A stretch of DNA of 64,000 bases from assembly GCA_963693365.1 (NCBI GenBank), contig CAVNZM010000019.1:165621-229620 (forward strand), in the 5' to 3' direction. Source of the DNA: Amoebidium appalachense. Taxonomy: Eukaryota; Protista; Ichthyosporea. The notes under the pieces were generated by a model. That model saw nothing but the letters and a program-made list of their open reading frames with translations. It was not told the DNA's origin and did not search any database. Positions 13,778-62,745 of this stretch are shown here, one piece after another. Every line of letters begins with the position of its first letter. Position 1 is the first letter of the stretch. The position numbers and the translations under genes are program-made.

Positions 13778-14485
13778 CTACAAAGGGGCCACCGTGCGGT
13801 TGTGAATGTGCTGTTCCAGCAAGCGGCTGGTCTCGGTGAGCGCGGGGTAGAAGGCGTCCTGCAGGTGCTCCGTCATGACGCGCTTGCGGTTGGATTTGCG
13901 GCACAGCGCCAGGGCTTCGGTTAGGACGCACTCGGTGAAGGATTGGATTATGCACGCGCAGGCGATGCCACTGATGACACTGACGCGCCACTTGACGGTA
14001 GGGTCAAGAGCGAGAAGGGTGTTGCGAAACCGTGATGGGGGGAACACCAACTTGCACCTGCGCGTAATGGTGGTGCGCGTGCCGACAGTCAGGTTGTTGT
14101 CCTCGTACAGGGCGAGGCTCTCCTGAATGCGCGTCAACATGCCACGCACCACGCTGTCCGAAAGGAACACGCGGGCGGCCCCGACCACGTGCCTGAGCTT
14201 GACGGTGACGTGGCGTGCGTCGCCCAGCATGTGTACGATGCACATGCCGATCTTTTCCTGTAGTGCGGTCTGGAACATGTTGAGGTAGTCCAGGGCGTGT
14301 TTGTTTATGGCAAGCGTAGACATGCGTTTGAGCAGGCGGTATGTGTAGGCATTGTAGGACTTGCACTTTTCCCGGGGCAAAAGCGCGTCAGGGGACGGAA
14401 ACGCCGTGTCGGGGTAGTAGCACGGTAGCACCTCGGGCAGGCAGTTCAGCACGCCGTTGTTCTGCGCATGGCATGGTATCTCCAT
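13778..14485 (-). CDS. viral histone doublet H2B-H2A
   Basis: H2B-like KSYNAYTYRLLK..AINKHALDYLNMF..TVKLRHVVGAARVFL, then H2A-like ITRRCKLVFPPSR..RVS..EALALCRKSNRKRVMTEHLQDA. Confidence 0.85.
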   Translation of the reverse strand: MEIPCHAQNNGVLNCLPEVLPCYYPDTAFPSPDALLPREKCKSYNAYTYRLLKRMSTLAINKHALDYLNMFQTALQEKIGMCIVHMLGDARHVTVKLRHVVGAARVFLSDSVVRGMLTRIQESLALYEDNNLTVGTRTTITRRCKLVFPPSRFRNTLLALDPTVKWRVSVISGIACACIIQSFTECVLTEALALCRKSNRKRVMTEHLQDAFYPALTETSRLLEQHIHNRTVAPL

Positions 14486-17429: not shown

Positions 17430-18134
17430 TCAGTCCTCGTTGCCGTACGACTGGAACTTCCTGTCGCCCGCCCGGAAGCGGATGGACGGCTCGGCCCGCC
17501 AGTAGTAGAGCTTGTCCTCGGGGCGATTTGACTTGTGGGTGCGGTCCAGGACCAGGATGCCGTAGTTCTGGGTGTACTCATTCAGCAGCTCGTTGAACTC
17601 CCTGAAGGACTCGATGAAGCCGAAGAAGCTCTCCCACAGCTTCCGGCGTTCCAGCTGGCTGTCCTCGGCGAACACGAAGAGACAGTTGATGTTGTTGCGG
17701 TACTCGGGCGGGATGCTCTTTGCGTACTGGATGCTCATGAGGTAGAACCAGTTGAAGTGGCGGCCGTTGAAGAAGATCTGGCGGATGGTGGGGTCGTTCT
17801 TGAGCTGCTTGTCGTAGATGACGTCCTCGGCAATGCAGAAGATGTTTGGGGAGGTGCGCTTGGTCCAGCCCTTGACCCTGTCCTTCTGGCGCTCATAGAG
17901 CTGGCGCAGCTCGGTGGGGCGGAACTCGTTGTAGATGAACGCCTTGTTGAGGAAGCGGCCCCAGAACTGGTTGCCGTCCTCGGTGGCGCTCATGGCGATG
18001 CCGGCGCTCAGGTACTTGCGCTTGTGGTAGAGGACGTTGGCCATGGCGATGCTCTTGCCGCTGCCGCGGGGCCCGACAAAGACGCACACGGCCTCGGGAG
18101 GGATGGTGTTTGGGTAGAACGGCTGGAGCTTCAT
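17430..18134 (-). CDS. A32-like virion DNA packaging ATPase
   Basis: Walker A GPRGSGKS, Walker B CIAED, FFNGRH..SIQY family signature. Confidence 0.92.
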   Translation of the reverse strand: MKLQPFYPNTIPPEAVCVFVGPRGSGKSIAMANVLYHKRKYLSAGIAMSATEDGNQFWGRFLNKAFIYNEFRPTELRQLYERQKDRVKGWTKRTSPNIFCIAEDVIYDKQLKNDPTIRQIFFNGRHFNWFYLMSIQYAKSIPPEYRNNINCLFVFAEDSQLERRKLWESFFGFIESFREFNELLNEYTQNYGILVLDRTHKSNRPEDKLYYWRAEPSIRFRAGDRKFQSYGNED

Positions 18135-18781
18135 GTCTGCAGTAGGGCGAGAAATCATCTGGGCGAGGCACAAGTCAAGCAAAGGCACAAGAGAACGGCA
18201 AGCGTGAGGTAACCCGGCAAACGGGTGGGGGTATTATCTATCCCCACTGTGATGACCTCACCATCCCCTCCCACGCACCGTGGCCCCAGCCCCCCCCTGC
18301 CCCTCGCCCTGAAGGGGGTGAATAGAATTGGCGCGGGCCACCTACCAAGAGCTCCGCAAACGGGCGCGCCGCCCCCGCGCCCGCCCCGCCCCCCGTTTAG
18401 CACCCCCGCACCATCATTTCGGCTGCACCGGCAACAAGCCCGCCGGCAAGCGCGACAAAACCCGTGATCCTACCAACTGCCGCTGGCGCCCCTTAGACAG
18501 GGACCATGCCACGCCATGGAGGCCACGTAAGACACTTGTCCGTGAGCACGCGTGACATGCGGCGCACTGGAACAAGGACCACGACGTCCCAACTCCTCAT
18601 CAGAGTGCAATATCTGATAAGCATGTGGTGTGTGTGTGTGTGTGTGTTGTGGGGGGGGGGTTACAACTTCTTTCCCTTCTGCTTCCTGTGTTTTTTCGGT
18701 CTCTGTTTATTTTGAAAAGCTGTCAGCCTCCACACAAAACACCTTCTTCATCCGTGCCATACCCGTGGCCAATAAAAGCTT

Positions 18782-28705: not shown

Positions 28706-29491
28706 TCACAATGGGCACAGATGGAAGGCTAGGACGCCTAAGTCACTGACGGCGTACTCGAATCGGATGAGCTTGTTACTGGACATGTGTATCCTGACGT
28801 TGCTGTTCACGCACGCGCCCTTGCAGAACGCGCTGAGATACTTGACCATGAACTGCGCCTTGACCTTCTCGATCGGGACCTTCTTGAACTCCACACCCGT
28901 GGCTTTTCCCCTTCTGATCTTCAGCGCGTCCTCTCCCTTTTCGGGGATGTCTATCCTGCACTTCCCCAGCGCGCCCAGCGCACGCAGCCGGAGCGTGCGA
29001 TCCGCGACAGTGATCTTCACGACATTGGACACGGCCTGGATGTCCCTCAGGTAGCGCGCAAGCTCCTGGGCGTCGATGACAAAGACACAGTCGTAATCGA
29101 GCGATGGGGCGTCGAGGATTTGCCGCACCTCCTTGACCAGGGTCATGTTGTACACGATGCAGCTGCTGTCATCGGTGGTCTCCATCTTGACCTGCAGGGT
29201 GTCGTCCGTGGCGGTGAATGCGATGCTGTTGAAGCGGTGGGCGGTGGCGTTCTTGACGATCTTGTACAGGTTCTGGATCTCGAACGTGGCGGTCACATCG
29301 TTGGGTACGTCGAAGATCTCAAACTTGTCGGGGTGCAGCTTCATGTAGACGTAGGCCTTCTTTGCATTGTCAACTGCGGGCAGAACAAAGCCCTCCTTCC
29401 CACTGAACAGCACGGTCACCTCGCCGAGGATGTCCTTGACGCTGTCGATGGCGCATTTGAACGTGTTGACTTGCACGGTCTTGACGAGCAT
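28706..29491 (-). CDS. PCNA: PCNA sliding clamp
   Basis: FKCAIDSVKDIL..AVDNAKKAYVYMKL..FMVKYLSAFCKG..V.IHMS..IRFEYAVSDLGVLAFHLCP; 261 aa. Confidence 0.92.
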   Translation of the reverse strand: MLVKTVQVNTFKCAIDSVKDILGEVTVLFSGKEGFVLPAVDNAKKAYVYMKLHPDKFEIFDVPNDVTATFEIQNLYKIVKNATAHRFNSIAFTATDDTLQVKMETTDDSSCIVYNMTLVKEVRQILDAPSLDYDCVFVIDAQELARYLRDIQAVSNVVKITVADRTLRLRALGALGKCRIDIPEKGEDALKIRRGKATGVEFKKVPIEKVKAQFMVKYLSAFCKGACVNSNVRIHMSSNKLIRFEYAVSDLGVLAFHLCPL

Positions 29492-45652: not shown

Positions 45653-46795
45653 TCAAACAAGTGCCGGCTCCATGGCAAGCGGCTGGACCCCCGTGTACTT
45701 GGACTCCAGGAGGTCCACCACGTCGCTGAAGTTGTGTGTGTGCTGTGTCTTGGGCATGTGCAGGCACAGCCAGTCCCGTGCCCTACTGAGCACCGTGTAC
45801 GCCTCGAGCACCGTCATCTCCGTGCAGTAGGTGACGTTGCGCTTCCACCCCTCGATGATCCGGCGCTTGATGGCTCCCTGCACTGCCGTGCGGGCAAGCA
45901 CCACGCTCACGCGCCCCTCCTTCTCGTCCCAGATGCTCACGCCGATGGTGTCCTTGACGAACTTGCGGATCAGCCACGCCTCGCCCGATGTCTGGTCGGA
46001 GAACAGCGCACTCACCACGCTGTTGGCAAAGTTGAGCAGGCGTGCGCGCAGCACCTCGCATCCGACGTCCAGTGCACACTTGCCCACGTCATCGGGCAGC
46101 ACGCGCTCGTTGAGCGTGTTGGGGTCCGAGTTGATCTGCTCGCGCATCTGGCGGATGGCCCCGTTGCGCAGCGCAATGGTCAGCCGCTGCTCGTCCATCA
46201 GCTCCATGGCAACCTTCAGCAGCTTGGTCTTCTCGGCCACCAGCTCCTCCAGCTGCGCCTCGCGGGCCGTGCGCTTGGCCGCGCGCTCGGGGGTCTCCTC
46301 GACGCCGTTACGGAAGAACTCGCGCTCCTCGGGCGTGCTGTTGGTGTAGCGGGCCTCGATGTCGTCGATGAGCGACAGGTCGCCGGCGAGCAGACGCGAC
46401 ATGTACGCCGCGCTGGTGCGGCGCACCTCGTGTGCACGCTTGCCGGGCAGCAGGTAGATGATCTCGAGCAGGGTCTTGAAGGGGGCCATCGGGGTGGGCT
46501 TGCTCATGCCTGGCAGGCGAATGTCGACTTGACGTCATCACCTGGAGTAAGTTCTGTCCAGTCAAGTCAGACCTTACTGCCGGTAGGTTTGACGATTGGG
46601 GCGCTCTGACTGGTCATTTTCATGTCATGCCAAGCCTTGTGTGCGGCATTGCGATTCCCCAGCACCAGCGCAATGGCGTCCAGAACACTGGCCTTGTTGG
46701 TAGCCTGGTCGACTCGCACTACCGGCGTTCTTGAACATGGGGAACTGCTTGGCGAGGCTGTCCATGTTGATGCTGGCTGGGGTAGGGTTGTCCAT
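45653..46795 (-). pseudogene. Bro/antirepressor-like DNA-binding protein, frameshifted in the 5' part
   Basis: INMDSLAKQFPMFK / VRVDQATNKASVLDAIALVLG / TPMAPFKTLLEII..LAGDLSLI; paralogous to 47304..47762. Confidence 0.55.
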
Positions 46796-47115
46796 GTTGA
46801 TGGGAGTGTTTCGGGATCCGTGTTGCTGGAAGGGCTCCTTGGGTGGACTGAATGATTACTACAGACGCGCGCGACTCCTTTTATACCTTTGGATGAGACC
46901 GTCCAAATTGCCGAACGGGCAAGTCGTGACTGAATTTCATGAGCAGCAAGCCGCTTTGCGATTCTCAATCCTACTGGAGTAAGATTGATGTGATTGGCCG
47001 AATTCATCTCGATGACGTCATACATCACCAACCCCACCGTTTCCACCAATCAAATCGACGTTCCTGAGACGTTACCAGTTTTGGTCTGGTCAATTTTTCA
47101 AGGTTAACCACGAGT

Positions 47116-47762
47116 TCATGTATTGATTTTCTCTGCCAACTCAAAAATATCACTTACGACCTGGTACACACTAAAGTCTTCTGTGTGTGGGTTGTATCGT
47201 AGCCACCTGCACCCCAGTTGTTTGGTGATGTGGTTCTGGCGTTCTTCTTCGTAGATAGGGTCGCGGTCATCGTGGTTGTGCTCATCACATTCAACCACGA
47301 GGTTTAGACGTGGGAAATACAGGTCCACTCGGTAGGGCTCTGACATAGAACTGTGGATGGCTGTCGTAAACAAGCCGTACACTGGCGAATGATGCTGATG
47401 GTCTCACTCTCGACCGAAGTCCGCAGCAGCGCCACAGGAAGATCTGTCAATCCAAACACGTACACCCAGTACCGCTTCTTATTCATAGGCAACTTACAGC
47501 CTTGTAATACGATCCGAACAATTTCCCGAATTGTGTTGAAGGGGGCTACAGGTGTCACGTTGCCACGATTGTTGATTTTGATGCCCCCTGTCCCAGTCAA
47601 AAAACGATGACTCTTCTGTATGCGCATCCAAGCTGTCTTTGCAGCCAACATGTTGCCAAGAACGAGAGCGATGACGTCCAGAATGCTTACTTTGTTGGTG
47701 GAATGGTCAATTCGCACGGTTGCACCCTTCAGCATTGGAAACTCCCGTGTTAGACTCTCCAT
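47116..47762 (-). pseudogene. Bro-like N-terminus fused to a DUF559/Vsr-like endonuclease (frameshifts near 47340-47385)
   Basis: VRIDHSTNKVSILDVI..TPVAPF; YRVDLYFP..LVVECDEHNH..RD..RQ..LGCRWLRYNP. Confidence 0.65.
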
Positions 47763-47986
47763 GTTGATTGCCGGATTGAAAGTTTCAAGTGATGGCGCAG
47801 CATTGAATAGGCTAAAGGCTTTTATACCTTTGAACTTTGAGTTCACTTCGCCACAGACACGGGATCCAAGTCATGAGGAACTTGGCGGTAGCGACATCAG
47901 ATACCGTCTACAACGAATAAATCTCTTGGCGCCCAGGTATATAAGCCCCTCCCCGCTCCCGTCCTTTCATTCCGCCCCCTGGTAAC

Positions 47987-49426
47987 ATGGACGACTACCT
48001 CGCCTTCGAAGACACCGCCGCCGGCCCGCACTTCGGCATCCCCTTCGTCCCCGACGCCTGCCTGGACCACGAGTGGACCCCGGAGCTCGCCGTCGCCTAC
48101 CTGCGCAGCAATGTCGCCCACGTCAAGGGCTGCTCGACGTACATCCTCAAGCAGTGGTGCCAGGACAGGCTGAAGTACGAGCACCGCATCCTGGGCAAGC
48201 GCGACATGCAGGACACGCTCGCCAAGTTCCACTTCCCGCTGCTGGCCGACCGCCCCAACCAGCAGCCCGCCGCCCCCTACCGCGGCCGCGAATACCTCAA
48301 CAGCCCGTACATCCTCATGTACGACCGGCTGGTGTTCGATCCCGCCAGCCCGGACCCGCGCACGGGGGTGTACAAGAAGTCCTCCGGGCCCTACCGCACG
48401 TTCAACCTGTTCACCGGGTTCCGGTTCACGCTGAGCAACATGCCCGTAGCCCGGCGTGACGAGCTGGTGGCGCCCTTCGTCTCGCACGCGCGCGACGTGC
48501 TGTGCGGTGGCGACCCCGGGCTTTTTGACTACCTGATGCTGTGGATGGGCCACCTGTTCCAGCACCCGGCGTCCAAGCCCGGCAGCGCGCTGCTGCTCGT
48601 GTCCAAGCAGGGCGCGGGGAAGAACATCTTCTTCCAGGCGCTCATCGACGCCATGGGGGTCGAGCACTCGGTGTACGTCAACCGGCGCGACCGCATCCAG
48701 AACCACTTCAATGCGCACCTGCAGAACAAGCTGCTGGTGGTGGTCGACGAGGTGCTGTTCAGCAACTCGCGTGAGGTCAACAACATCATGAAGTCGCTCA
48801 TCACCGAGTCGTCCAACATCCTCGAGAAGAAGGGTCAGGATGCCGTGGCTGTGCGTGCGTGCGAGCGCTACGTGCTGCTGACCAACGAGAGCAACCCCGT
48901 GCTTGTCGAGCCCAGCGACCGCCGCTACGCGTGCATGGCCGTCAGCAACGCGCGTGTCGGCGACACGGCCTACTTTGCCACGTTTCACCAACACCACAGA
49001 GACCCCGAGGTGCTGCAGGCCATCCACGACCTGCTCGTGTCCGTGCCCGACGTGCCGCCCGTGCTGCCGCCGCCGCCCGTGACCGACCTCAAGAAGGAGC
49101 TGCGTGGCGCCACGCTTGACGACAACGTGGCGTTCCTTCGTGACATCGCCACGGGCGCAGACGGCTGCGAGGACCTGGCCGTCGCCGACGGCGCTTACGT
49201 GACCACTTTCGGGCTGGCCGAGCGCATGCGCACGTGGGCCGCACGCAACGGCAAGGACCCCGCGGCCGTCAGTGTCAAGAAGCTGGGCGGCGTGCTCGGC
49301 AAGGTGTTTGGGCAGCGCGTCAAGAAGCAGCGGAGCGCGGTGGCGGTGGGGGGCGTGGAGGGCACGGATCCGGAGGAGTACGTGCACGTGTACGTGTTCG
49401 AACACGCGAAGGTGGCGGGGGCGTGA
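47987..49426 (+). CDS. SF3 helicase (D5/NrS-1-like) with C-terminal wHTH-like domain; no primase domain seen
   Basis: Walker A QGAGKN, Walker B VVVDE, motif C LLTN, DRRY. Confidence 0.88.
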   Translation: MDDYLAFEDTAAGPHFGIPFVPDACLDHEWTPELAVAYLRSNVAHVKGCSTYILKQWCQDRLKYEHRILGKRDMQDTLAKFHFPLLADRPNQQPAAPYRGREYLNSPYILMYDRLVFDPASPDPRTGVYKKSSGPYRTFNLFTGFRFTLSNMPVARRDELVAPFVSHARDVLCGGDPGLFDYLMLWMGHLFQHPASKPGSALLLVSKQGAGKNIFFQALIDAMGVEHSVYVNRRDRIQNHFNAHLQNKLLVVVDEVLFSNSREVNNIMKSLITESSNILEKKGQDAVAVRACERYVLLTNESNPVLVEPSDRRYACMAVSNARVGDTAYFATFHQHHRDPEVLQAIHDLLVSVPDVPPVLPPPPVTDLKKELRGATLDDNVAFLRDIATGADGCEDLAVADGAYVTTFGLAERMRTWAARNGKDPAAVSVKKLGGVLGKVFGQRVKKQRSAVAVGGVEGTDPEEYVHVYVFEHAKVAGA

Positions 49427-49553: not shown

Positions 49554-50402
49554 TCAAAGCGCATGCCCGATGTCGCCCACCTGGTTCCACGGTGTTCTCT
49601 GGTTGTGCATGAATTCGGGGATGTCCCAGTACTCCATGCCGCTGTTGTTGCCGTAGATGGCATGGATGATGTTCTGCCGCAGTGGGAGACCACCCGCTTC
49701 CAGGGCATGCTCAACCTGCGCGAGCCAGGGGTCCAGCCACGTGGTTGTCCATTGCTGCACAGCAGCCTGCAGCTCCTGGAAGGACGTGCCTCCCGGTGCG
49801 GCGGCCTCGGGGGCCTCGTGGTCTATCCCGGCCTGGTACGCCGTCTCGGGCGGGGGCTGCGGCTGCGGAAGCACCACCAGCTTCTCGAAGAGCAGTGCGG
49901 GCATGATCCAATACGGCCACCTCCTGACGCCCAACTGGGCCTCCAGAAATTCCTCCTCCTCCTCCTCCTGCTCGCTTGTAGAGCCGTCCAAGGTGACAGC
50001 TTCCCAAAACACCCACCCACTGCTGGTCAGTTTCATGCCGTATGACGTGTCGTCCATTTGCAGTTGCAGGACGTAGTAGTAGGGGCTGAGGCTGGTATTG
50101 GCAGCGGGATGTCCGGGGCGATACCGACCACTGCCGTAGTCGAAGTTGCATCTAAGACGCCAGACCTCGCTTATGGCGCCGCTGAATACGTTAATGGAGT
50201 TTTCTATTCCCGTGCCATCCGGACCCGTGGTGGTTACCGGTGTTATCACGGGATGGGCAATCCTGTATGCAGACCCCTGCTGTCTCCATGTCACATCCCC
50301 GTCTTCAACACCATATGCTGGATCCATTTCATTTAGAAGCCCCACCAAGTCTTCCTCCGTGGTGATCTGGATTGGGTCCCAGCGTGTGGTCATTACAGCC
50401 AC
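49554..50402 (-). CDS. hypothetical protein; C-terminus paralogous to 59228..59647
   Basis: LQAAVQQW..WLD..V.HALEAGGLPLR..YG.N. Confidence 0.55.
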   Translation of the reverse strand: MAVMTTRWDPIQITTEEDLVGLLNEMDPAYGVEDGDVTWRQQGSAYRIAHPVITPVTTTGPDGTGIENSINVFSGAISEVWRLRCNFDYGSGRYRPGHPAANTSLSPYYYVLQLQMDDTSYGMKLTSSGWVFWEAVTLDGSTSEQEEEEEEFLEAQLGVRRWPYWIMPALLFEKLVVLPQPQPPPETAYQAGIDHEAPEAAAPGGTSFQELQAAVQQWTTTWLDPWLAQVEHALEAGGLPLRQNIIHAIYGNNSGMEYWDIPEFMHNQRTPWNQVGDIGHAL

Positions 50403-51889: not shown

Positions 51890-52045
51890 CTGATGGCTTT
51901 TTCTCTCTTCCCTTCCACTCATGTCACCCGCTTATACCTCAATGACCTCCGTATCCTCAGGAGATCGATACGACTTGCTGGTGTCTACACTTCGCTCTTT
52001 CCGCCCTCCAGTCTCATAAGTCGGTCTCTTTCAGACAGATCACAG
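51890..52045 (-). pseudogene. decayed copy of the PD-(D/E)XK nuclease gene
   Basis: ccctccagtctcataagtcggtc and caatgacctccgt closely match 56250-56340. Confidence 0.7.
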
Positions 52046-52091: not shown

Positions 52092-52206
52092 AGCGGCCGG
52101 GGGGCCTGGGGGCATGCGTGGCTCGCCCGCCCCGTGCCGACCTGTGAGACCACTGTGCCTCCCCGGCCGTGCATGCCTCGCGTGCCCCTCATGCCCCCGC
52201 CCCGCT
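52092..52206. repeat. GC-rich hairpin repeat, copy 1
   Basis: shares GGGGCATGCGTGGCTCGCC and GTGAGACCACTGTGCCTCC exactly with the copy at 57081. Confidence 0.75.
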
Positions 52207-54281: not shown

Positions 54282-54429
54282 CCGGGCCTGGGTGGCTGGG
54301 GGTGGCCGGGGGTGGCCGGGGGTGGCTGGGGGGGCTCCTGTGTCCCCCCAGCGCACGTGCCTCGCCCGCCTCCTGGTCCTTCCGTGCCCCACTTGCCACT
54401 CCCAGCCCCCCAAGCCCCGGGCGCAGTGT
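54282..54429. repeat. GC-rich hairpin repeat, copy 2
   Basis: G-rich arm (GGTGGCYGGG x4) and C-rich arm; shares TGGGTGGCTGGGGGTGGC with copy 3. Confidence 0.65.
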
Positions 54430-54545: not shown

Positions 54546-55235
54546 CTAATCCTGAAAGATCCTTGAAGCCCACAGGTAGTAGCAGTCTGACTTGCCACTG
54601 GCACCTGTTGGTGGGTGCAGTGGCCATTTGCAAACTCTAGGTTCGAGCGTGCATTTTGTGTGTCCAAGAATTTTTGTAATGGCCATCCCAAATGCCCGAG
54701 TGCTTGGCATAGGAGTTTGGGCAGCGTTGACGTTGTGCCATTCCTGAAAAAGCTGATACAAACCGGTTGATGTCACGGCACAACCGTCGTGGATGAATGT
54801 GAATTTTTCACATCCGTTTCTGTGTGACAACAGATCCCTTAGGAATTGCATCTCATTGTTAGCTGATGCGCACTCTGCCACTGGCTCTTCGGCCTCCACA
54901 TCCAGCGCTGGAAGTGGGCTCCAAATGAGCTGCAGGGTGTCTGGTTCGATCGTGGCTCTGATGCCCAGGCGCGTCATCGTTTCGATCGCCACTTTCAAGC
55001 AATCTAGGGACGCAATATCGAACAGATGTACCCGAGGTCGATGGTTCGGACAGTAGGCTTGATAGCACAGGACCTGCCCAACGGCGGATTTCCATTTAGA
55101 AGCGCGCTTGACTTCGATGACTTCCGTGGCCGTCAGCAGGTCGATCCGTCCTGCGGGCGTGCGTACCTCAATGGTTCCACCTTCGAGCTTGGCCAGCCTA
55201 TCCCTGACATATGACTCGTCGTAGGTAGCCATCAC
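54546..55235 (-). CDS. PD-(D/E)XK nuclease fused to a helicase-type wHTH domain
   Basis: GRIDLLT..EVIEVK..WKSAVGQVLCY; C-terminal FLRDLL..GCE..VTSTGLYQLFQEW..FGMAITKILG. Confidence 0.75.
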   Translation of the reverse strand: MMATYDESYVRDRLAKLEGGTIEVRTPAGRIDLLTATEVIEVKRASKWKSAVGQVLCYQAYCPNHRPRVHLFDIASLDCLKVAIETMTRLGIRATIEPDTLQLIWSPLPALDVEAEEPVAECASANNEMQFLRDLLSHRNGCEKFTFIHDGCAVTSTGLYQLFQEWHNVNAAQTPMPSTRAFGMAITKILGHTKCTLEPRVCKWPLHPPTGASGKSDCYYLWASRIFQD

Positions 55236-55285
55236 TTACAACACAAGAAAATAAAAATCACCCGCAGTCGATTGTTGGTTGCCAG

Positions 55286-55382
55286 TGGGTGGCTGGGGGT
55301 GGCTGGGAGGGGCCTGTGTGCACCGGTGCCCCGTCAGCCACGCGTGCCTCCTGTGCCTCGCGTGCCCCCCAGGCCCCGCGCT
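55286..55382. repeat. GC-rich hairpin repeat, copy 3
   Basis: begins right after the zinc-finger stop; CGTGCCTC..GCCTCGCGTGCC shared with copy 4. Confidence 0.65.
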
Positions 55383-55677: not shown

Positions 55678-56373
55678 CTACTGCTGCTCCGGGCTGTTGA
55701 TGACCTGACCATCGATCCTGTAGCAATAGACAACCTTGTTTGTTTCGGACACGCGAGGGTGGTCTGGCCAGCGCGTAACTCTTTTTACTTTGGCAGCTTT
55801 GGGTTTTCCCAAAATCTTCCTGAGGGTCATGCCGAAGATTTTTAAACTTGGAGCCGCTGTGGAAGAGAGATTCAGTTTATGCCATGAAAGGTATAGCTGG
55901 TACAGCCCCGATGATCTCACCAAGCAGCTATCCTTTATAAATGTCATGTCCTCACATCCGTTGGTATGGGAGAGCAAATCTCTTAAAAATTGCCGTTCTA
56001 CTTGCTTCCTCTGGGCATTCTTGGGCTTTGTAGTTTCTGATTTGGGGTTTGGACCCCATATATGCTGCAGTGTATCATGTTCTGCCGTGACGGTGATGTT
56101 ATGACGCATCATGGTCTCCACAGCTACCTTGTACGTGTCAGCGGAGGCATAGCCATATAGATGGACTCGCGCACGATGGGTGGGGTAGTGGTCTTTGTAT
56201 GCAAGTACCTGCCCCATCGCCGATTTCCAATATTGAACCTTCTTTACTTCAATGACTTCTGTGTCCGTCAGCAGGTCGATCCTACCGGCGGGAGTATGCA
56301 CCTCGCTCTTCCCACCCTCCAGTCGCATAAGTCGGTCCCTCACCAAACCTTCGTCACACAGCGTGCTAGCCAT
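55678..56373 (-). CDS. PD-(D/E)XK nuclease fused to a helicase-type wHTH domain (paralogue)
   Basis: GRIDLLTDTEVIEVK..WKSAMGQVLAY; FLRDLL..GCED..GLYQLYLSW..FGMTLRKILG. Confidence 0.75.
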   Translation of the reverse strand: MASTLCDEGLVRDRLMRLEGGKSEVHTPAGRIDLLTDTEVIEVKKVQYWKSAMGQVLAYKDHYPTHRARVHLYGYASADTYKVAVETMMRHNITVTAEHDTLQHIWGPNPKSETTKPKNAQRKQVERQFLRDLLSHTNGCEDMTFIKDSCLVRSSGLYQLYLSWHKLNLSSTAAPSLKIFGMTLRKILGKPKAAKVKRVTRWPDHPRVSETNKVVYCYRIDGQVINSPEQQ

Positions 56374-56430
56374 TGTAGTTGGCGCTAGAAAAAATATACA
56401 AGCCACGACACCCGATGCTGTGCATACCAG

Positions 56431-56531
56431 TGAGGGCTTGAGGGGCTGTGGGTGGCTCCCGTGGCACACGTGCCTCGCGGGCCTCGCGTGCCTCGCATGC
56501 CCCTCAGGGCCCCCCAGGCGCCCCCGCAGTG
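56431..56531. repeat. GC-rich hairpin repeat, copy 4
   Basis: TGAGGGGC..GCCCCTCA stem; truncates the adjacent helicase fragment. Confidence 0.65.
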
Positions 56532-57004
56532 TTGAACGTACGGCTGTGGGTAGACGTGTATCGCTGGTTACGGACACGGGTCTTGGGGTCGGGGTCGCTG
56601 GGGTCGAAAACAATACCACCGTCGTAGACGACCATTTGGCTGCTGTCCAGATGCCATGAGCCCTTGTATGTTTCCACCTTTTTGCCCGTCGGGTTGTATT
56701 TGAACTTGTACTTGGACAGCATGTCGGCCACCTTCTTCTTGGACTTGACCTCATGGACGAATCTCCCATCCTTGAAACGCTTGAAGAGGTACACACCGTC
56801 CGGGCGGGAATAAGCCACTAGTGTACGACAGAACGTGTGGATCTGCTCCTCGGTCCACTCGTAATTCTCGACAATGTCTGCGTCCAACCAGTTGTTGCGC
56901 GTGCCTGTTGTCCGCTCAAACTCTTCGTATGTCGCCAGTTTGCGCTGCTCGTTCTCGGACATGTCCGCGGCGATCTGCATGTATAGATCGTCCATGTTGT
57001 CCAT
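56504..57004 (-). pseudogene. N-terminal fragment of the SF3 helicase family (no P-loop)
   Basis: EWTEEQI..VAY..YLFK..VFDPSDPDPKT..RTFN matches the N-termini of the 47987 and 57230 helicases. Confidence 0.75.
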
Positions 57005-57080
57005 TGTAGAAAGAATGGGGAGAAAATGAACCCGGGTCTGCTTAAGTACCCCCCCCCCTATAGCTAGCATCTGTTGGTTC

Positions 57081-57220
57081 CTGAGGGGCTGTGAGGGGCA
57101 TGCGTGGCTCGCCTGCCTCGTGCTGCCCGTGAGACCACTGTGCCTCCTCTTCCTCCCCGGCCCCATGCCCTGTGTGCCACCCCCAGCCACCCCCAGCCCC
57201 CCATGCCCCCGCGCAGCGTT
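57081..57220. repeat. GC-rich hairpin repeat, copy 5
   Basis: two 19-nt blocks identical to copy 1; lies just after the helicase stop. Confidence 0.75.
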
Positions 57221-57229
57221 GGGGAATGG

Positions 57230-58714
57230 CTAGGCCTGTTTGATCTTCTCGTGGTCCAACAAAAAAGCGTACGACGTTCCGGTTGGGGACAGCGCAGGCA
57301 TCCCAGGTGCAACAGTCAGGTGGTTGTTCCGCACCCCTTTGTTGGGTCCAAGTATCTTGCTGAGCATGGAGCCCATGCTCTTCACACTGGCGTACGGGAT
57401 GCTCTTGGTCTTGCCGTTGAGTGAAAGCCACTCCTTGTACAGATGCAGCATCGTGGTGGCTGTAACACGGGCCCCGTTGGGAAGTTGCTCGATAGACATG
57501 CCCTCGGCGCCTGTCGCCATGTCTTTGAGAAACAGGAGTTCATCTGGCTGTGTCATTTCACGCAGTTCGCACCAGAGTTCGGTCTTGGGTGGAAGCGGAA
57601 GAACACGGGGGACATTGGGCATCTTCATGAAGTAGTCACAGACAGCCTGTAGGTTTGCAGGGTCTTCGTAAAATCGTGTAAAGTTCTGGTAGTAGGCTCT
57701 TGGATAGACCACTGGGGTCCCCTGCAAGCACACCCAACGACGGTCCGATTCCTCCACCCGAACGGGCCATTTCTCGTTTGAAAGCCAGACATAGCGTTCG
57801 AAACTCTTCACACACACAGCGTCCTGCCCCTTTCGCTCGATCATGTTCACCTGCTGGGTGATGCGAGCCTTCATCAGGTTCGCAATTTCCCTGTTACTGC
57901 CAAGACCCATTTCGTCGCACACAACCAGTAGCTTGTTCTCCAGATGCGCGTTGAACTTCCCCTCCAAATGCTCTCTGTGTGTGATATAACCACAATAACA
58001 ACTGCCAATGATGTTGGCGATGATCTCCCACCAGATGTTTTTCCCTATTCCCTGTATCGATCTCATGAGAATCGCTGTGCCAGACTTGACTTCAGGATAC
58101 TGGAAGATGTGTGCGACCCATTGCATCAGATAATGAAAGCTCTCCCGGTCATTGTTGCAAAGCACCTCAAAGGCGTGGCGTTCGAACAGGGAGACAGAAC
58201 CTGACTGCCAAGAAACGTTCTCGGGTTGGTGGGGTAGCGCCAATCCCTTGAACATGTTGTATGCCCGGCAACGTTGGACAAGGTATGCTGGCTTCGTGTT
58301 TCCAGTGCGTGGGTCTGGGGATGACGGGTCAAAAACAAAACAGGTGTAGTATGGAAAGCAAGGTGTTTTCAACACGTTTGCACCGTTGTACGTATCCTGT
58401 TTGCCGTTTGCATGCGGAACAAGCTGAAATAGAAAGGCTCCCAAAAACTCTTGGAGTGCAGCCTTTGTCTTGCGATGGTGTTTGTACAGGTTCGTGTCCT
58501 GGTCAAAAATCTTGACCAGATAGGCACCTTCCCTGCTGACATATGCGATGTTTGGGCTTAAAAAGGCAAACACCTCATCCAAAGTCCAATTTGCGCGTTG
58601 AACACATGTGTGGGGGTCAAACAACATGCTATGGTCAACCGAAAGGTCTTCGAATGCATCATAAGATGGTGGAACACTCATGATGCTTACAGTAGACTGA
58701 AGAAAAAAAAGCAT
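57230..58714 (-). CDS. SF3 helicase (D5/NrS-1-like) with C-terminal wHTH-like domain
   Basis: QGIGKN, VVCDE, WLSN, DRRW; paralogue of 47987; likely start near 58681. Confidence 0.88.
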   Translation of the reverse strand: MLFFLQSTVSIMSVPPSYDAFEDLSVDHSMLFDPHTCVQRANWTLDEVFAFLSPNIAYVSREGAYLVKIFDQDTNLYKHHRKTKAALQEFLGAFLFQLVPHANGKQDTYNGANVLKTPCFPYYTCFVFDPSSPDPRTGNTKPAYLVQRCRAYNMFKGLALPHQPENVSWQSGSVSLFERHAFEVLCNNDRESFHYLMQWVAHIFQYPEVKSGTAILMRSIQGIGKNIWWEIIANIIGSCYCGYITHREHLEGKFNAHLENKLLVVCDEMGLGSNREIANLMKARITQQVNMIERKGQDAVCVKSFERYVWLSNEKWPVRVEESDRRWVCLQGTPVVYPRAYYQNFTRFYEDPANLQAVCDYFMKMPNVPRVLPLPPKTELWCELREMTQPDELLFLKDMATGAEGMSIEQLPNGARVTATTMLHLYKEWLSLNGKTKSIPYASVKSMGSMLSKILGPNKGVRNNHLTVAPGMPALSPTGTSYAFLLDHEKIKQA

Positions 58715-58734
58715 GCATGCTCCTTTTATACCCT

Positions 58735-58851
58735 GTTGAAGAGTTAAAGCTGTTGAAGCTGTTGAAGGGGGGTTGTTTAAAATAGAAGTGTGACGGGCTG
58801 TGTGTGTGTGTGGGGTGATCTCGCGGACCTCAACGGTTCAACGGCTTCAAC
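58735..58851. promoter_or_regulatory. inverted GTTGAA/TTCAAC iteron cluster (candidate origin or operator)
   Basis: GTTRAA at 58735, 58743, 58752, 58761; YTCAAC at 58829, 58837, 58846. Confidence 0.55.
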
Positions 58852-59227
58852 AACAACCCATCATAGTGCCCCGCCCCCCCCCCCCCCCCCCCCTACCACC
58901 TGTACACCAGCACGCCGGCCAGCAGCACGAGCAGCACCATGCATGCAAGCGCTATGCCCCTCCACATCGAAGCGCTCTTGAGCTGTGCATCATGGTCGTC
59001 CAATGAAGTGCCCATGTAGAGCATGAAGCGCGTGCTGTTGTCGATGGTCAGGTGGTACTCGTGCGGGTCGGCGGCAATGTCATCCCTGCGCACCCACGAG
59101 TTACTCGGGTTGTCAAATCTCAGGTTTGCAATGTTCGGAGAAGTCATACCTTCCGAAGAGATAGTTTGGAGCGCCCCCTCCCCAGCAACTCGGGGAGCAC
59201 ACACAGAGATTATGCATCGCAGTGCTA

Positions 59228-59647
59228 ATGGAACCTAAAAACCGCTGGGACGTAGGGCGCGCCAAGACGGAGGACGCATTGCTCTTCGAGACCCTTGTCA
59301 AAGAACCGCCCCTGACCAAACCTCGGACCCTGCTCGAGTCCGCCTACCGTGCCGGAGTGTCACACGGCGCGCCCAGCACCATGGCGCCCGGCGGTGCAAC
59401 CACCGAGGACCTGAGCACAGCACTTGAAGATTGGGGTGAGCGCTGGCTTGACTATTTTTTCAAAGAGGTCGGCCACGTGGTGGAGGCAGCAGGGCTGCCG
59501 CTGCGCGAGGGTGTCTTTGACAGAGCCTACGGGCGCAACCGCAACCAGGAGTTCGAGGGGTGGGTGCGGACCTTGATGAGTGGAACGAGGGGACCCCCTG
59601 GAGCAACGCGGGCAACGTGGGGCATGCCTTATAGCAAAAAATCTTAA
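59228..59647 (+). CDS. hypothetical protein, paralogue of the 49554 C-terminus
   Basis: LSTALEDWGERWLD..VGHVVEAAGLPLREG..YGRN. Confidence 0.55.
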   Translation: MEPKNRWDVGRAKTEDALLFETLVKEPPLTKPRTLLESAYRAGVSHGAPSTMAPGGATTEDLSTALEDWGERWLDYFFKEVGHVVEAAGLPLREGVFDRAYGRNRNQEFEGWVRTLMSGTRGPPGATRATWGMPYSKKS

Positions 59648-60302
59648 ACAGTTTCGGGGTGAATATATAATGTAAATCCAACGATCCAAATAATGGTTTT
59701 GCAACTTCACATCGGGGTGAATATACAATGTAAATCAAACAACAGAAATAAAAATATCAATGTGCTTGGCGCTTTACTCGCACACTCTGTCGGAGCACCA
59801 GTCTCCGGTATTTTGGCATGAACTCGTCTGCATACACGTACTTCCTTGCACGTCTGTGACCCCTCTTTTTGGACCGACCTCTTCGTTTTGACATGACGTT
59901 CACCCAAAAATTGTGGGCAACCTCTCCTAGTGAAACCATTTCCTCCTCTTGCACCCAGCCGCGCACAGGTTGCTGGTCCACGCACCCTCCTCGAGCTCGA
60001 GGGACACCTTGCGCCACCCGGATTCTGCGCGCTTGATCTCGCACGCCACCACAATGTCTCCCGGTCGCACACCTGCGGTCCACATGCTTGTGCAACAGCG
60101 CACGCTCAGCACCTCACACTCCGATTCGGGCCCACGTACACACACGCCGAAACACGCAAGCGCGCACTCGTGGTCATGCAGCGCCTCGAGAACTGGCACC
60201 TTGCGAATGAGTGTGCGCCGACGCAGGCGGGGACTCTGGAGGGTATAAAAGCGTGTGTCTGACACGGGGAGCTGCCAGTCTGAATCTGCACCAGAACCGA
60301 CC

Positions 60303-60821
60303 ATGGCTTTTGAGCAGGACCTGAAGCTATTTGTCAATCGGCTGTCGCTGCTTGTATCCAACATGACGTTCGACTCGAACGGCGCCGGGAGGGTGGCAAG
60401 CCGGCCGCTACAGCTCCACGCAAGACTCGGCAAGGGCGACACGATGCTGTCGGACACGATGCTGCCGCTGCAGTCGGTGGAAACGTCGAACAGGACTGGA
60501 CTCAACCACCTGGTGTTTTCGACGTGTCCACTGGAGGGGGCCGGGGATGCGGTGACCATCGACCTGGATTGGGGCAAGTCGTTTCGGCTGACCTGGGAGC
60601 GCTGGGACACCACGCTGTCGCTGCTGCCACCGAGGGATCCGACGGAGGAGGAGGGCATGAGCGAGGGACGAGCTGTCCCCATGGAGGCAAAGAGAAAACG
60701 AACAACCCTTCTGCGAATCGACTTTTTGAAGGACTTCCTTTGGCATGACATGGGGTGCGACATTCTGTCGCTGCAGTTATATGAATCAGTACAGAAAAAT
60801 AGGCGGCAGTGTAGAGAATAA
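60303..60821 (+). CDS. hypothetical protein
   Basis: ATG at 60303 preceded by GGGTATAAAA at 60241. Confidence 0.6.
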   Translation: MAFEQDLKLFVNRLSLLVSNMTFDSNGAGRVASRPLQLHARLGKGDTMLSDTMLPLQSVETSNRTGLNHLVFSTCPLEGAGDAVTIDLDWGKSFRLTWERWDTTLSLLPPRDPTEEEGMSEGRAVPMEAKRKRTTLLRIDFLKDFLWHDMGCDILSLQLYESVQKNRRQCRE

Positions 60822-61098
60822 TGCAGGTATCGCGCAGTGCGTGTGTGTGTGCGACTGCGGGGGCCCCGGATGGTGCAGCACGCGTATATAAGCAGGGCCA
60901 CACCCAACGTGTCGTCCGAGCGCATGCTTGTGTGTGCGCACACAAATTTGATTAAAAAGACCACACGCGACCCAAAGACCACCCCGGGTCAGACCAAGGA
61001 CCCCCCCCCCCCCCCCCAAAACCAGCACACCCGGCTCCGCCCACTCGGCCGTCACCCCCAACGGAGGTAACTAAAAAAGCCAACGTTTTCCTTTGCCC

Positions 61099-61415
61099 TG
61101 AGTAATTCAAGTTACTCTGAGCATAAAATTAATGGTTTTTTATTTGTTTCATGAGTAACAATATCTTACTCAGGGTACTCATTCTGAGTAACACAGACAA
61201 GTTTCCCCCACTAGATGTTACTCACCCAAATATGGTAAAGGTTTCCTTTTTAGGTATAAAAATATGCAATTGTCATATAGTGAGTAGGATGAGTAGAATG
61301 AGTACGTACTCATCTACTGTGGGCTACGGGTATACCTAAATCTCAATCCAAAAGGAAATTGGAACACCCGGGGGAGACCAGATGAGTAGGTACTCAAGCT
61401 ACTCATCCTACTCAC
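61099..61415. promoter_or_regulatory. AT-rich TGAGTA/TACTCA iteron cluster (candidate replication origin)
   Basis: 14 hexamers counted; 16-bp palindrome 61298-61313; 17-bp inverted repeat 61280-61296 / 61399-61415. Confidence 0.65.
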
Positions 61416-61690
61416 CCCATCAAAATGGCCTCAAAATTTAGGTGGTACCCCTTACACCTCCCCTGGACACACAAACTCATTCCATTAACTTTGTCCCCGA
61501 AAAGCTTCGAGAGGCATTCGCCCACTTGTCGCAGGCTGGCTGTCTGCGGGTTCTTGCCGTTTAAGCGCATCCACTCTTGAAGATGAAGGTGGACTCGGTT
61601 GCTGTCACAAACTTTCGGTCGGTGAGGGCCATTCTTTCCAGTGTCCTCCCCATGACAACATCCTTCAAAAAGGACAGACAGTCAGATCGG
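61412..61690 (-). pseudogene. remnant of the helicase C-terminal wHTH-like domain (one frameshift; absent from the ORF track)
   Basis: manual translation: DCLSFLKDVVMG..FVTATE / HLHLQEWMRLNGKNPQTASLRQVGECLSKLFG..GYHLNFE. Confidence 0.7.
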
Positions 61691-61698
61691 GAAAACGA

Positions 61699-62343
61699 TG
61701 TTCAGACGTCTCCTTAGGATGGTGCAGACGTGTACTTAAAGGGTGGGGCTGTGCAGACGTGTACTTAAAGGGTGGGGCTGTGCAGACGTGTACTTAGGAT
61801 GGTGTAGAGGTACTTAGGGCTGTGCAGACGTGTACTTAGGATGGTGTAGAGGTACTTAGGGTGGTGCAGACGTGTACTTAGGGTGGTGCAGACGTGTACT
61901 TAGGGTGGTGCAGACGTGTACTTAGGGTGGTGCAGACGTGTACTTAGGGTGGTGCAGACGTGTACTTAGGGTGGTGCAGAGGTGTACTTAGGGTGGTGCA
62001 GACGTGTACTTAGGGTGGTGCAGACGTGTACTTAGGGTGGTGCAGACGTGTACTTAGGGTGGTGCAGAGGTGTACTTAGGGTGGTGCAGACGTGTACTTA
62101 GGGTGGTGCAGAGGTGTACTTAGGGTGGTGCAGACGTGTACTTAGGGTGGTGCAGACGTGTACTTAGGGTGGTGCAGAGTGTACTTAGGGTGGGGCTGTG
62201 CACGAAGTGTACTTAGGGTGGTGCAGACGTGTACTTAGGGTGGGGCTGTGCACCACAGTGTACTTAGGGTGGTGCAGACGTGTACTTAGGGTGGGGCTGT
62301 GCACCACAGTGTACTTAGGGTGGTGCAGAGTGTACTTAGGTGG
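61699..62343 (+). repeat. 22-bp tandem array GTGTACTTAGGGTGGTGCAGAC (roughly 28 units)
   Basis: read directly; homogeneous centre, degenerate ends. Confidence 0.95.
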
Positions 62344-62745
62344 GTGTCTTGTGGTGAAAGTAAAGTTTATGGCATACAGGCAGATGTGTGCTTTAAGCCT
62401 TAGGGAACTGTGGGCAGACATGTCAACACTTGGGCCTATGGGTAGACGTGTACACACTTAGTGTATTTGTTTGTGTCTCTCATGGTTATTTTATAGCATG
62501 AAGCACTGCAAAAAATGGTGTATGTTTCCGTGGTCCACGTACACAGAATCCTTTAATATGAACACAAGTGATTGTATAGAAAAAGAGTAAGTACGTACAT
62601 GATAGTCTAGTCAGATTACAAAGAACAAATCAACTTGGACCGAGTATATTCAAATACAAACTAAAAGAGAAAAGAAACAAATAAATCAAGACCGATCAAT
62701 TCAAATACAAATCAAAAGAGAATGCCACTTAGTCGACCAATCAAA

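What the first reader, a model, noticed from the sequence alone, without database searches (positions are those of the whole stretch)
61099..61415. Origin-like iteron field (14 x TGAGTA/TACTCA, 9-nt spacing) abutting the stop codon of the wHTH remnant
Seen: TGAGTA at 61281/61290/61299 mirrored by TACTCA at 61391/61400/61409; more copies at 61099, 61152, 61167, 61176, 61185, 61219, 61307 and 61383; perfect palindrome ATGAGTACGTACTCAT (61298-61313); a 17-bp inverted repeat; AT-rich non-coding DNA in a GC-rich genome. The remnant's TGA overlaps the last iteron. Known: SaPI-type satellites place inverted iterons directly after the rep helicase gene. Inference: this is a replication origin, and origins are poorly defined for giant viruses.
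Basis: partly seen in the sequence, partly recalled or inferred. Interest (0 to 1): 0.75.

Follow-up and report, generated by a model that had tools for sequence, protein, structure and literature searches.

The report
Helicase-loading origin kept by helperless copies
Right behind a DNA-unwinding gene in giant-virus-like DNA lies a mirror-image block of short repeats, laid out like the replication origins of bacterial plasmids and phage satellites; it is likely the start site where that enzyme loads, and in several sequenced samples most copies of the block lack the gene and would borrow the enzyme.

Summary
The repeats are real: 14 TGAGTA/TACTCA in 317 bp against 9 in the other 63.7 kb. The core is a 36-bp inverted repeat (33/36) around a 64-bp spacer, overlapping the stop codon of a DUF5906 (SF3) helicase with a winged-helix tail. 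The 'remnant' is largely an assembly artefact: six public runs differ from the window at the frame breaks, and their contigs continue into a longer gene. The same layout, with other words, follows related helicases in 5 of 8 small plasmids and 6 of 17 other loci. A search by DNA pattern alone found a TGAGTA dyad behind another D5-like gene. In 5 of 6 runs the dyad is 2.7-37 times deeper than the helicase end, with a different flank. Best reading: a SaPI/plasmid-type origin read by the adjoining helicase and kept by non-autonomous copies of a small multicopy module, rather than the giant virus's single origin. Binding and firing are untested. This scan noted such origins before on other DNA (198 notes, several in giant viruses); I found none described in print for such elements.

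The parts
61099..61224 (.). Distal iteron cluster: six TGAGTA/TACTCA copies, five of them TGAGTAA, plus near-matches at 61113 and 61118
   Evidence: 61162-61238 is shared by all variant families in the runs. A diverged variant keeps TGAGTAAC at the 61152 position. The 61099 copy is lost by a 3-nt deletion in a common variant.
61225..61280 (.). AT-rich gap between the distal cluster and the dyad; candidate melting region (inferred); holds a TATA-like word
   Evidence: 71% AT, matched by 0.3% of 56-bp windows. Some copies leave the window at 61238 into other sequence.
61280..61315 (.). Left arm of the dyad: three copies at 9-bp period plus one inverted copy (palindrome 61298-61313)
61316..61379 (.). 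Dyad spacer, 64 bp: 34-bp core at 71% AT (61331-61364) between GC-rich clamps; second candidate melting region (inferred)
   Evidence: One base longer in all six runs.
61380..61415 (.). Right arm of the dyad: mirror of the left arm; last copy overlaps the helicase stop codon
   Evidence: 33 of 36 bases match the left arm; stop codon.
61412..61715 (-). 3' end of a DUF5906 SF3 helicase gene (winged-helix tail). Frame broken in the window near 61593 and 61638-61647; cut near 61700-61715
   Evidence: tblastn to both paralogs. The C-terminus aligns and ends like theirs. Public contigs differ at the breaks at full depth and run on for up to 1.19 kb.
61422..61423 (.). Junction where many dyad copies leave the helicase gene for another flank
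   Evidence: Loose end listed in X1, X6, X9, X17, X18 (5 of 6 runs).
61715..62347 (.). 22-bp tandem array (about 27 units, holds TTAGGG and TAAGTA) replacing the rest of the helicase gene in this window; very high copy; telomere- or satellite-like (inferred)
   Evidence: Summed depth 43,796 in X17. No listed contig bridges the helicase-array joint.
58735..58851 (.). Second, weaker dyad with another word (GTTGAA-like, 4 + 3 copies, 8-9 bp period, 60-bp spacer) just upstream of the intact helicase's TATA-like box
   Evidence: read by eye; it falls below the scan's mismatch limit.
57230..58714 (-). Intact paralog: primase-less DUF5906 SF3 helicase with C-terminal winged helix; no iteron field after its stop
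47987..49426 (+). Second intact paralog (37% identical); no iteron field after its stop
58900..61422 (.). Higher-depth segment that ends in the iteron field; possible non-autonomous unit of about 2.5 kb (borders approximate)
   Evidence: Depth step near 58880 in X1, X6, X9; X17 holds 59377-60831 at 374 against 4-19 for the helicase at 57.2-58.7 kb.

Best explanation
The block is likely the replication origin (loading site) of the SF3 helicase gene whose stop codon it overlaps, and likely serves a small multicopy replicon module inside giant-virus-like DNA rather than the whole virus. Shown: the repeats, their mirror layout, the adjoining helicase and its fold, and copies that keep the block without the gene. 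Inferred from SaPI Reps: neighbouring winged-helix tails of a hexamer would dock on the 9-bp-spaced triplet and the inverted fourth copy; one hexamer would sit on each arm; the AT-rich core or the adjacent AT-rich gap would melt; two forks would leave. The helicase has no primase domain, so priming would come from the host or the virus. Copies that lost the gene but kept the block would be copied in trans, which would explain their excess.
For: 14 copies against 0.045 expected, unique in the window. The paralog folds (pLDDT 93) like NrS-1 C-terminal region (E 4e-19), SaPI Rep1 7pds (4e-10) and SaPI5 PriRep 7ola (5e-10); its tail is a winged helix. SaPI origins: 6-12 penta/hexamers right after rep, opposed sets round an AT-rich centre (PMC9371898, passages); SaPI5 L2-L4 are 7-mers 2 bp apart with an inverted L5 (10.64898/2026.10.17.759575, passages). 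Forward test: opposed-word fields after the stop in 5 of 8 plasmids and 6 of 17 other loci. Reverse test: of 122 prokaryote-genome loci picked only by a TGAGTA triplet, the two with 4 opposed copies lie at 3' ends of helicase-like ORFs; L164 has 13 TGAGTA behind a D5-like gene in nearly the window's order. Dyad and longer helicase gene are on one contig at equal depth in X19. Dyad/helicase-end depth: 2.7, 3.6, 4.4, 31.9, 36.7 and 1.0.
Against: No binding or firing data. The dyad spacer is 50% AT overall, unlike the long AT tracts of the plasmid origins. Both intact paralogs in the window lack a field after their stop. 9 of 17 other loci and 2 of 8 plasmids show none; 3 more are weak. No close relative with flanking DNA was found, so the comparison rests on 25-35% identical helicases. 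Variation among copies is too scarce to show selection on the hexamers: 1 of 6 listed changes touches one, about the 26% expected; one copy is deleted in a common variant and one X9 contig shortens a 9-bp step. The tail's fold match is generic (Z 4-5). Contig depth is not copy number, and the runs are 4 studies at most.
Confidence: 0.62

Rival explanations
1. The block is the main origin of the giant-virus genome itself, fired by this helicase.
For: The window holds PCNA, an A32-like ATPase, a ligase, YqaJ and a histone-fold protein, and no second field of this strength. Much of 56-61.7 kb is multicopy, as repeated viral inserts would be.
Against: The block outnumbers its helicase and has at least two flanks on each side. 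The helicase is a primase-less DUF5906 type present in several copies, not a fused D5 primase-helicase. The giant-virus bin G002 has no field after its related gene. GC skew shows nothing usable this close to the window's end.
Confidence: 0.14
2. The block is a helicase-loading site at the end of a mobile element and serves transposition or recombination (rolling-circle-like or homing), not theta replication.
For: A fixed junction 7 bp outside the dyad (61422), followed by 43-47 shared bases that start with a palindrome before contigs end. Mobile, repeat-flanked D5-like helicases are proposed in entomopoxviruses (PMC11296320, section 9 part 1). The same tail is fused to a nuclease-like domain in two nearby genes.
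Against: No target-site duplication at the arms. The left flank stays fixed in every dyad contig. No transposase or HUH domain was found next to it. The layout matches plasmid origins.
Confidence: 0.15
3. The repeats are host transcription-factor sites (bZIP-like), or a hairpin RNA or 3'-end signal of the helicase transcript.
For: 5 of 14 sites are TGAGTAA, close to recalled Yap/AP-1 words; a TATA-like word lies at about 61256; the strand folds at z = -7.5.
Against: No exact AP-1, CRE or Yap word among those tested. The fold follows from any inverted repeat. A hairpin does not need internal 9-bp repeats. The same word and layout stand behind helicase-like genes in unrelated contigs, one from an archaeal bin.
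Confidence: 0.06

Closest known systems
SaPI/PICI replicon: Rep1 or PriRep5 with its iteron ori (PMC9371898; bioRxiv 10.64898/2026.10.17.759575; passages read)
   Same: SF3 helicase with C-terminal winged helix; about 300 bp of hexamer repeats right after the gene; opposed sets; 9-bp step with an inverted neighbour; structural matches 7pds, 7ola, 7om0.
   Different: Eukaryotic-virus-like setting; DUF5906/NrS-1-type helicase without primase and no pri gene seen; 14 copies; central spacer only partly AT-rich; no integrase or phage-interference genes; gene-less copies in excess.
Small plasmids with a DUF5906 primase-helicase (pMP1 NC_012758, Roseomonas NZ_CP024585, pMNOD07 NC_011890)
   Same: Same Pfam family; triplets at 9-bp period in opposed sets after the stop.
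   Different: Other words, longer AT-rich centres, bacterial hosts. I found no paper testing their origins (listing only), so they are a sequence parallel.
Mobile D5-like helicases of entomopoxviruses and Polinton-like-virus end modules (PMC11296320; passages and section 9 part 1)
   Same: Extra, repeated D5-like helicases in large DNA viruses, flanked by repeats, near nuclease genes; inverted repeats proposed as origins.
   Different: No iteron layout in the passages I read; those genes lie in terminal repeats of animal viruses; no gene-less copies in excess reported there.
Phage P4 alpha with ori/crr; polyomavirus and papillomavirus origins (recalled, no call)
   Same: A helicase-initiator reads short opposed repeats beside an easily melted tract and can act in trans.
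   Different: P4 alpha has a primase; SV40 T antigen and E1 use an N-terminal origin-binding domain, not a C-terminal winged helix.

Membership tests
SaPI-type iteron origin | Lies immediately downstream of the rep helicase gene | tested here: met
   Stop codon overlaps the first copy; contiguous with a longer gene in X19.
SaPI-type iteron origin | 6-12 penta- or hexanucleotide iterons over about 300 bp | tested here: met
   14 in 317 bp, 8 in the dyad; slightly above the published range.
SaPI-type iteron origin | At least two iterons on each side, pointing in opposite directions | tested here: met
   3+1 on each arm.
SaPI-type iteron origin | Central AT-rich region | tested here: inconclusive
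   Spacer 50% AT, its 34-bp core 71%; a separate 56-bp gap is 71%.
SaPI-type iteron origin | Cognate SF3 (or MCM-like) helicase with C-terminal winged helix | tested here: met
   Tested on the intact paralog; the adjoining gene's tail aligns with it. The cognate protein itself was not folded.
SaPI-type iteron origin | Winged helix binds the iterons and the site supports replication | not testable with these tools
   Needs binding and origin-mapping experiments.
SaPI/PICI element | Phage satellite in a bacterium, with integrase, pri-rep and helper-interference genes | tested here: not met
   Neighbours are giant-virus-like (PCNA, A32-like, histone fold, C2H2 finger); no such module among the ORFs scanned. 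It works like one but is not filed as one.
Main replication origin of a Nucleocytoviricota genome | One per genome, tied to the core replicon | tested here: inconclusive
   Multicopy with mixed flanks; no whole genome held; no capsid or polymerase gene among the ORFs scanned.
MITE / foldback transposon | Terminal inverted repeats with target-site duplication and variable flanks at both ends | tested here: not met
   No duplication at the arms; left flank fixed in all dyad contigs.
Known structured RNA family | Rfam match | tested here: inconclusive
   No match at E 0.1 in 58.7-63 kb; absence does not exclude an undescribed RNA.

The most novel reading that the evidence does not exclude
A family of transposase-free mini-replicons lives inside giant-virus-derived DNA of a cultured, probably eukaryotic, organism: a primase-less SF3 helicase gene with its own iteron origin, parasitised by origin-only derivatives of about 2.5 kb that outnumber it up to 30-fold in some strains. 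Different helicase copies would read different words (TGAGTA, GTTGAA), as incompatibility groups do in plasmids.
Probability: 0.3. Interest if true: 0.8.

Novelty: new variant of a known kind. Interest (0 to 1): 0.52.

Why it matters
Internal origins of giant viruses and their satellites are barely mapped: the passages I read name only vaccinia's telomeric starts and a 'possible' origin in FsV-158 (PMC13236599). Here a discrete 136-bp dyad, a candidate reader protein and natural gene-less copies occur in DNA from named, apparently cultured organisms sequenced in several studies, so binding and firing can be tested directly. If gene-less copies are amplified in trans, this is a bacterial-style origin parasitism in eukaryotic viral DNA and a way for repeats to multiply without a transposase. 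The origin type itself is well known from bacteria, which caps the surprise.

Tried and rejected
No whole genome is held, so genome-wide word counts and skew could not be done; window skew is dominated by repeats at 62-64 kb. Exact dyad patterns: 0 hits in viral contigs and metagenome contigs. Close helicase relatives with flanking DNA: none in viral contigs or genome contigs; the deep alignment gave no usable pattern. A32 relatives in viral contigs were about 30% identical, and three long records could not be searched. No Rfam match. Sigma-70 and terminator scans were at chance level. Foldseek found nothing at E 0.001 for the tail alone; SaPI tails were not among the 50 VIA rows. A hexamer-conservation test had too few changes. 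The idea that the 22-bp array is a second binding field (TAAGTA is one base from TGAGTA, as FR is to DS in EBV oriP, recalled) is unlikely: no listed contig joins it to the helicase, and it replaces the gene. An HUH-like N-terminal domain in relatives P0012/P0161 was seen by eye only; Pfam gave nothing and the Atlas does not hold them. Lone TGAGTA triplets mean little: 0 of 122 loci had a DUF5906 hit. Rows dropped before the count: L006, L008, L012, L017, L019 (no stop in the contig), L014 and L021 (too short), L016 (frameshift). 8 of 13 plasmid hits and 3 of 334 phage hits were fetched.

Full report
1. The observation. In 2000 first-order simulations of the region no hexamer of any kind exceeded 5 copies. 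The core is a 36-bp inverted repeat, 61280-61315 and 61380-61415, 33 of 36 matched, around 64 bp. Each arm is three copies at a 9-bp step plus one inverted copy. A distal cluster of six copies (61099-61224) follows a 56-bp gap of 71% AT. The dyad spacer is 50% AT, with a 34-bp core of 71%. A scan for a triplet with an inverted doublet found this place alone in the window and nothing in 5 simulated windows.

2. The setting. No genome is held. The window carries PCNA, an A32-like ATPase (below Pfam's cut-off), an ATP-dependent ligase, YqaJ, a C5 methylase, T5orf172, a DDE transposase domain, a weak histone fold and a C2H2 finger. I read this as giant-virus-like DNA (inference); I saw no capsid or polymerase gene among the ORFs scanned. 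The stretch 57-64 kb is held by 20 of 22 listed runs, under three organism codes and four named studies. That points to cultured organisms, probably eukaryotic (inference); one may be the window's source.

3. The 'remnant'. The minus-strand sequence ending at 61412 is the tail of a DUF5906 helicase. It hits both intact paralogs (57230-58714, 47987-49426) and ends where they end. I laid six runs as contigs. All six differ from the window by an indel at 61593 at full depth; X9, X18 and X19 also differ at 61638-61647, and X6 has loose ends there. These are the frame breaks, so they are probably errors of the window. Contigs of X1, X6, X9, X17 and X19 leave the window near 61700 and run on, by up to 1191 bases. 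The first 30 loose bases, read by eye, fit the family's linker motif (Pro-x-x-x-Leu-Lys-x-x-Leu; alignment). In the window the gene is replaced from about 61715 by a 22-bp array of very high summed depth (43,796 in X17). No listed contig bridges that joint, so it may be a rare real join or a misassembly.

4. The protein. The intact paralog folds at pLDDT 93 and matches NrS-1's C-terminal region, ASFV PrimPol, SaPI Rep1 (7pds, E 4e-10), SaPI5 PriRep (7ola, E 5e-10) and poxvirus D5. Its tail alone is a winged helix, tied at Z 4-5 with RFX, Orc1/Cdc6, NrS-1 and ASFV domains: a generic match. Pfam finds no primase domain. A family of about 460-500-aa relatives exists (P0011-P0023), unnamed and without retrievable flanks. 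DUF5906 is described as a likely SF3 helicase common in mavirus-related elements (PMC13215967, passages).

5. Forward test. I scored the best hexamer present in both orientations within 350 bp after the stop, against 200 shuffles scored the same way. Of 17 scorable metagenome, phage and viral loci, 6 stood out (L002, L009, L010, L011, L013, L015; at most 2 of 200), 2 were weak and 9 had nothing, among them three lytic phages and the giant-virus bin L025. Some loci are near-duplicates, and eight were dropped for lack of flank or frame. Of 8 plasmids fetched from 13 hits, 5 stood out (L165-L168, L170), 1 was weak and 2 had nothing; in L165 and L168 one background window scored as high. L166, L167 and L002 show triplets at a 9-bp step facing each other across about 100 bp. 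The window's two intact paralogs have no field after their stops.

6. Reverse test. None had a DUF5906 hit, and 117 had at most one opposed copy. Two had four opposed copies. L140/L164 has 13 TGAGTA behind an 897-aa D5-like gene (P-loop; D5_N E 0.0017, below cut-off) on a contig with C2H2 fingers, in nearly the window's order. L061 has a dyad behind a DUF3631-like ORF piece next to primase genes. Three loci with two opposed copies showed no helicase; L110 lies in an adenylation-domain gene, by eye.

7. Copies without the gene. In X19 one contig of depth 203 carries dyad and helicase together. In the other five runs the dyad is deeper than the helicase end: X1 32 to 12, X6 1556 to 437, X9 369 to 84, X17 1025 to 28, X18 824 to 26. 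These five list a loose end at 61422, 7 bp outside the dyad; read by eye it has a stop in the helicase frame. Other variants branch at 61238, 61162 and 61072; the one at 61162 keeps TGAGTAAC in otherwise different sequence. Depth steps up near 58880, which suggests a unit of about 2.5 kb ending in the field. Contig depth is not copy number, so the ratios are rough. Against strict conservation: a common 3-nt deletion removes the 61099 copy, and one X9 contig shortens a 9-bp step.

8. Mechanism. SaPI Reps are self-loading SF3 helicases whose C-terminal winged helix reads 6-12 short iterons directly after the gene, in opposed sets round an AT-rich centre (PMC9371898, passages). In the SaPI5 structure four tails of one hexamer bind three 7-mers set 2 bp apart and one inverted copy (10.64898/2026.10.17.759575, passages; its supplementary figures were not seen). 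Each arm here has that three-plus-one count and 9-bp step, though the inverted copy sits 2 bp away, not 15. I infer one hexamer per arm, melting of the spacer core or the adjacent gap, priming by a host or viral primase, and supply in trans to gene-less copies. None of these steps was tested. I put this at 0.62; the rivals are an end site for transposition or homing (0.15), the giant virus's main origin (0.14) and host factor sites or a hairpin RNA (0.06).

9. Novelty. The origin type is known from bacteria. I ran nine literature searches (listings only unless cited). 'Iteron' occurred in none of the 25 listed virophage, Polinton and transpoviron papers (433 matched), and only in two papers on prokaryotic elements; one search found no paper. 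The library lacks most subscription journals, so this does not prove absence. The nearest eukaryotic description is of repeat-flanked mobile helicases in entomopoxviruses (PMC11296320). PMC8097291 (passages) names only a putative origin-binding protein for mimivirus. This scan holds 198 notes on inverted iterons beside primase-helicases, several in giant viruses (unchecked AI notes), and none on this DNA. What this case adds is a primase-less helicase, gene-less copies whose share differs among samples, a second dyad with another word before a paralog, and apparently culturable material. Verdict: real; a new variant of a known kind; interest 0.52.

Noticed in passing
window 58735-58851: Second dyad with a GTTGAA-like word (4 + 3 copies, 8-9 bp step) directly upstream of the intact helicase's TATA-like box; possibly another helicase's origin.
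   Followed up: partly
window 61715-62347: 22-bp array holding TTAGGG, degenerate at both ends, very deep in public runs; joins the helicase at a short shared stretch, as telomere healing or a misjoin would.
   Followed up: partly
window 54546-55235, 55678-56373, 51922-52029: Two genes and one fragment fuse a 'GRIDLL' nuclease-like N-terminus (weak PDDEXK_9, E 0.17) to the same winged-helix tail as the helicases; they could compete for or cut at iteron sites.
   Followed up: partly
window 52109-52200, 54284-54390, 55277-55370, 56440-56510, 57095-57210: A family of GC-rich spacer repeats with 9-10 bp periods between the winged-helix genes.
   Followed up: no
window 56504-57001: Stand-alone copy of the helicase's N-terminal 150 residues, right behind the intact paralog.
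   Followed up: no
window 59222-59647 and 49554-50393: Related unknown proteins (42% over 93 aa), each near a helicase; the first has an indel against all four runs.
   Followed up: partly
window 60951-61071: 121-bp piece with a poly-C tract that common copies skip (joint 60950-61072), next to a small hairpin at 60928-60945.
   Followed up: no
window 56000-61740: Several indels differ from all runs at full depth (59556, 61369, 61593): the window's consensus is error-prone, so other 'pseudogenes' here need checking.
   Followed up: partly
window 13778-14485, 17430-18158, 28706-29491: Histone-fold protein, A32-like ATPase with 71-79% identical metagenome relatives and PCNA: a giant-virus lineage without close records in the viral contigs searched.
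   Followed up: partly
L164:1074-4126 (G001:C18): Contig in a Planctomycetota bin with a D5-like gene, 13 TGAGTA copies behind it and C2H2 fingers; looks like misbinned eukaryotic-virus DNA.
   Followed up: partly
L061:1872-4794: Archaeal-bin contig with a TGAGTA dyad between a DUF3631-like ORF and two-subunit primase and Cas4-like genes.
   Followed up: partly
L165-L168, L170, L171: Plasmids with a DUF5906 gene and no replicon type given by PLSDB show clear or likely iteron origins after the gene.
   Followed up: partly
P0012, P0161 residues 30-145: Extra N-terminal domain that looks by eye like a degenerate HUH domain; no Pfam match.
   Followed up: partly
window 46500-47800: AT-richer stretch before the 47987 helicase with decayed KilA-N/Bro-like pieces (by eye).
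   Followed up: no
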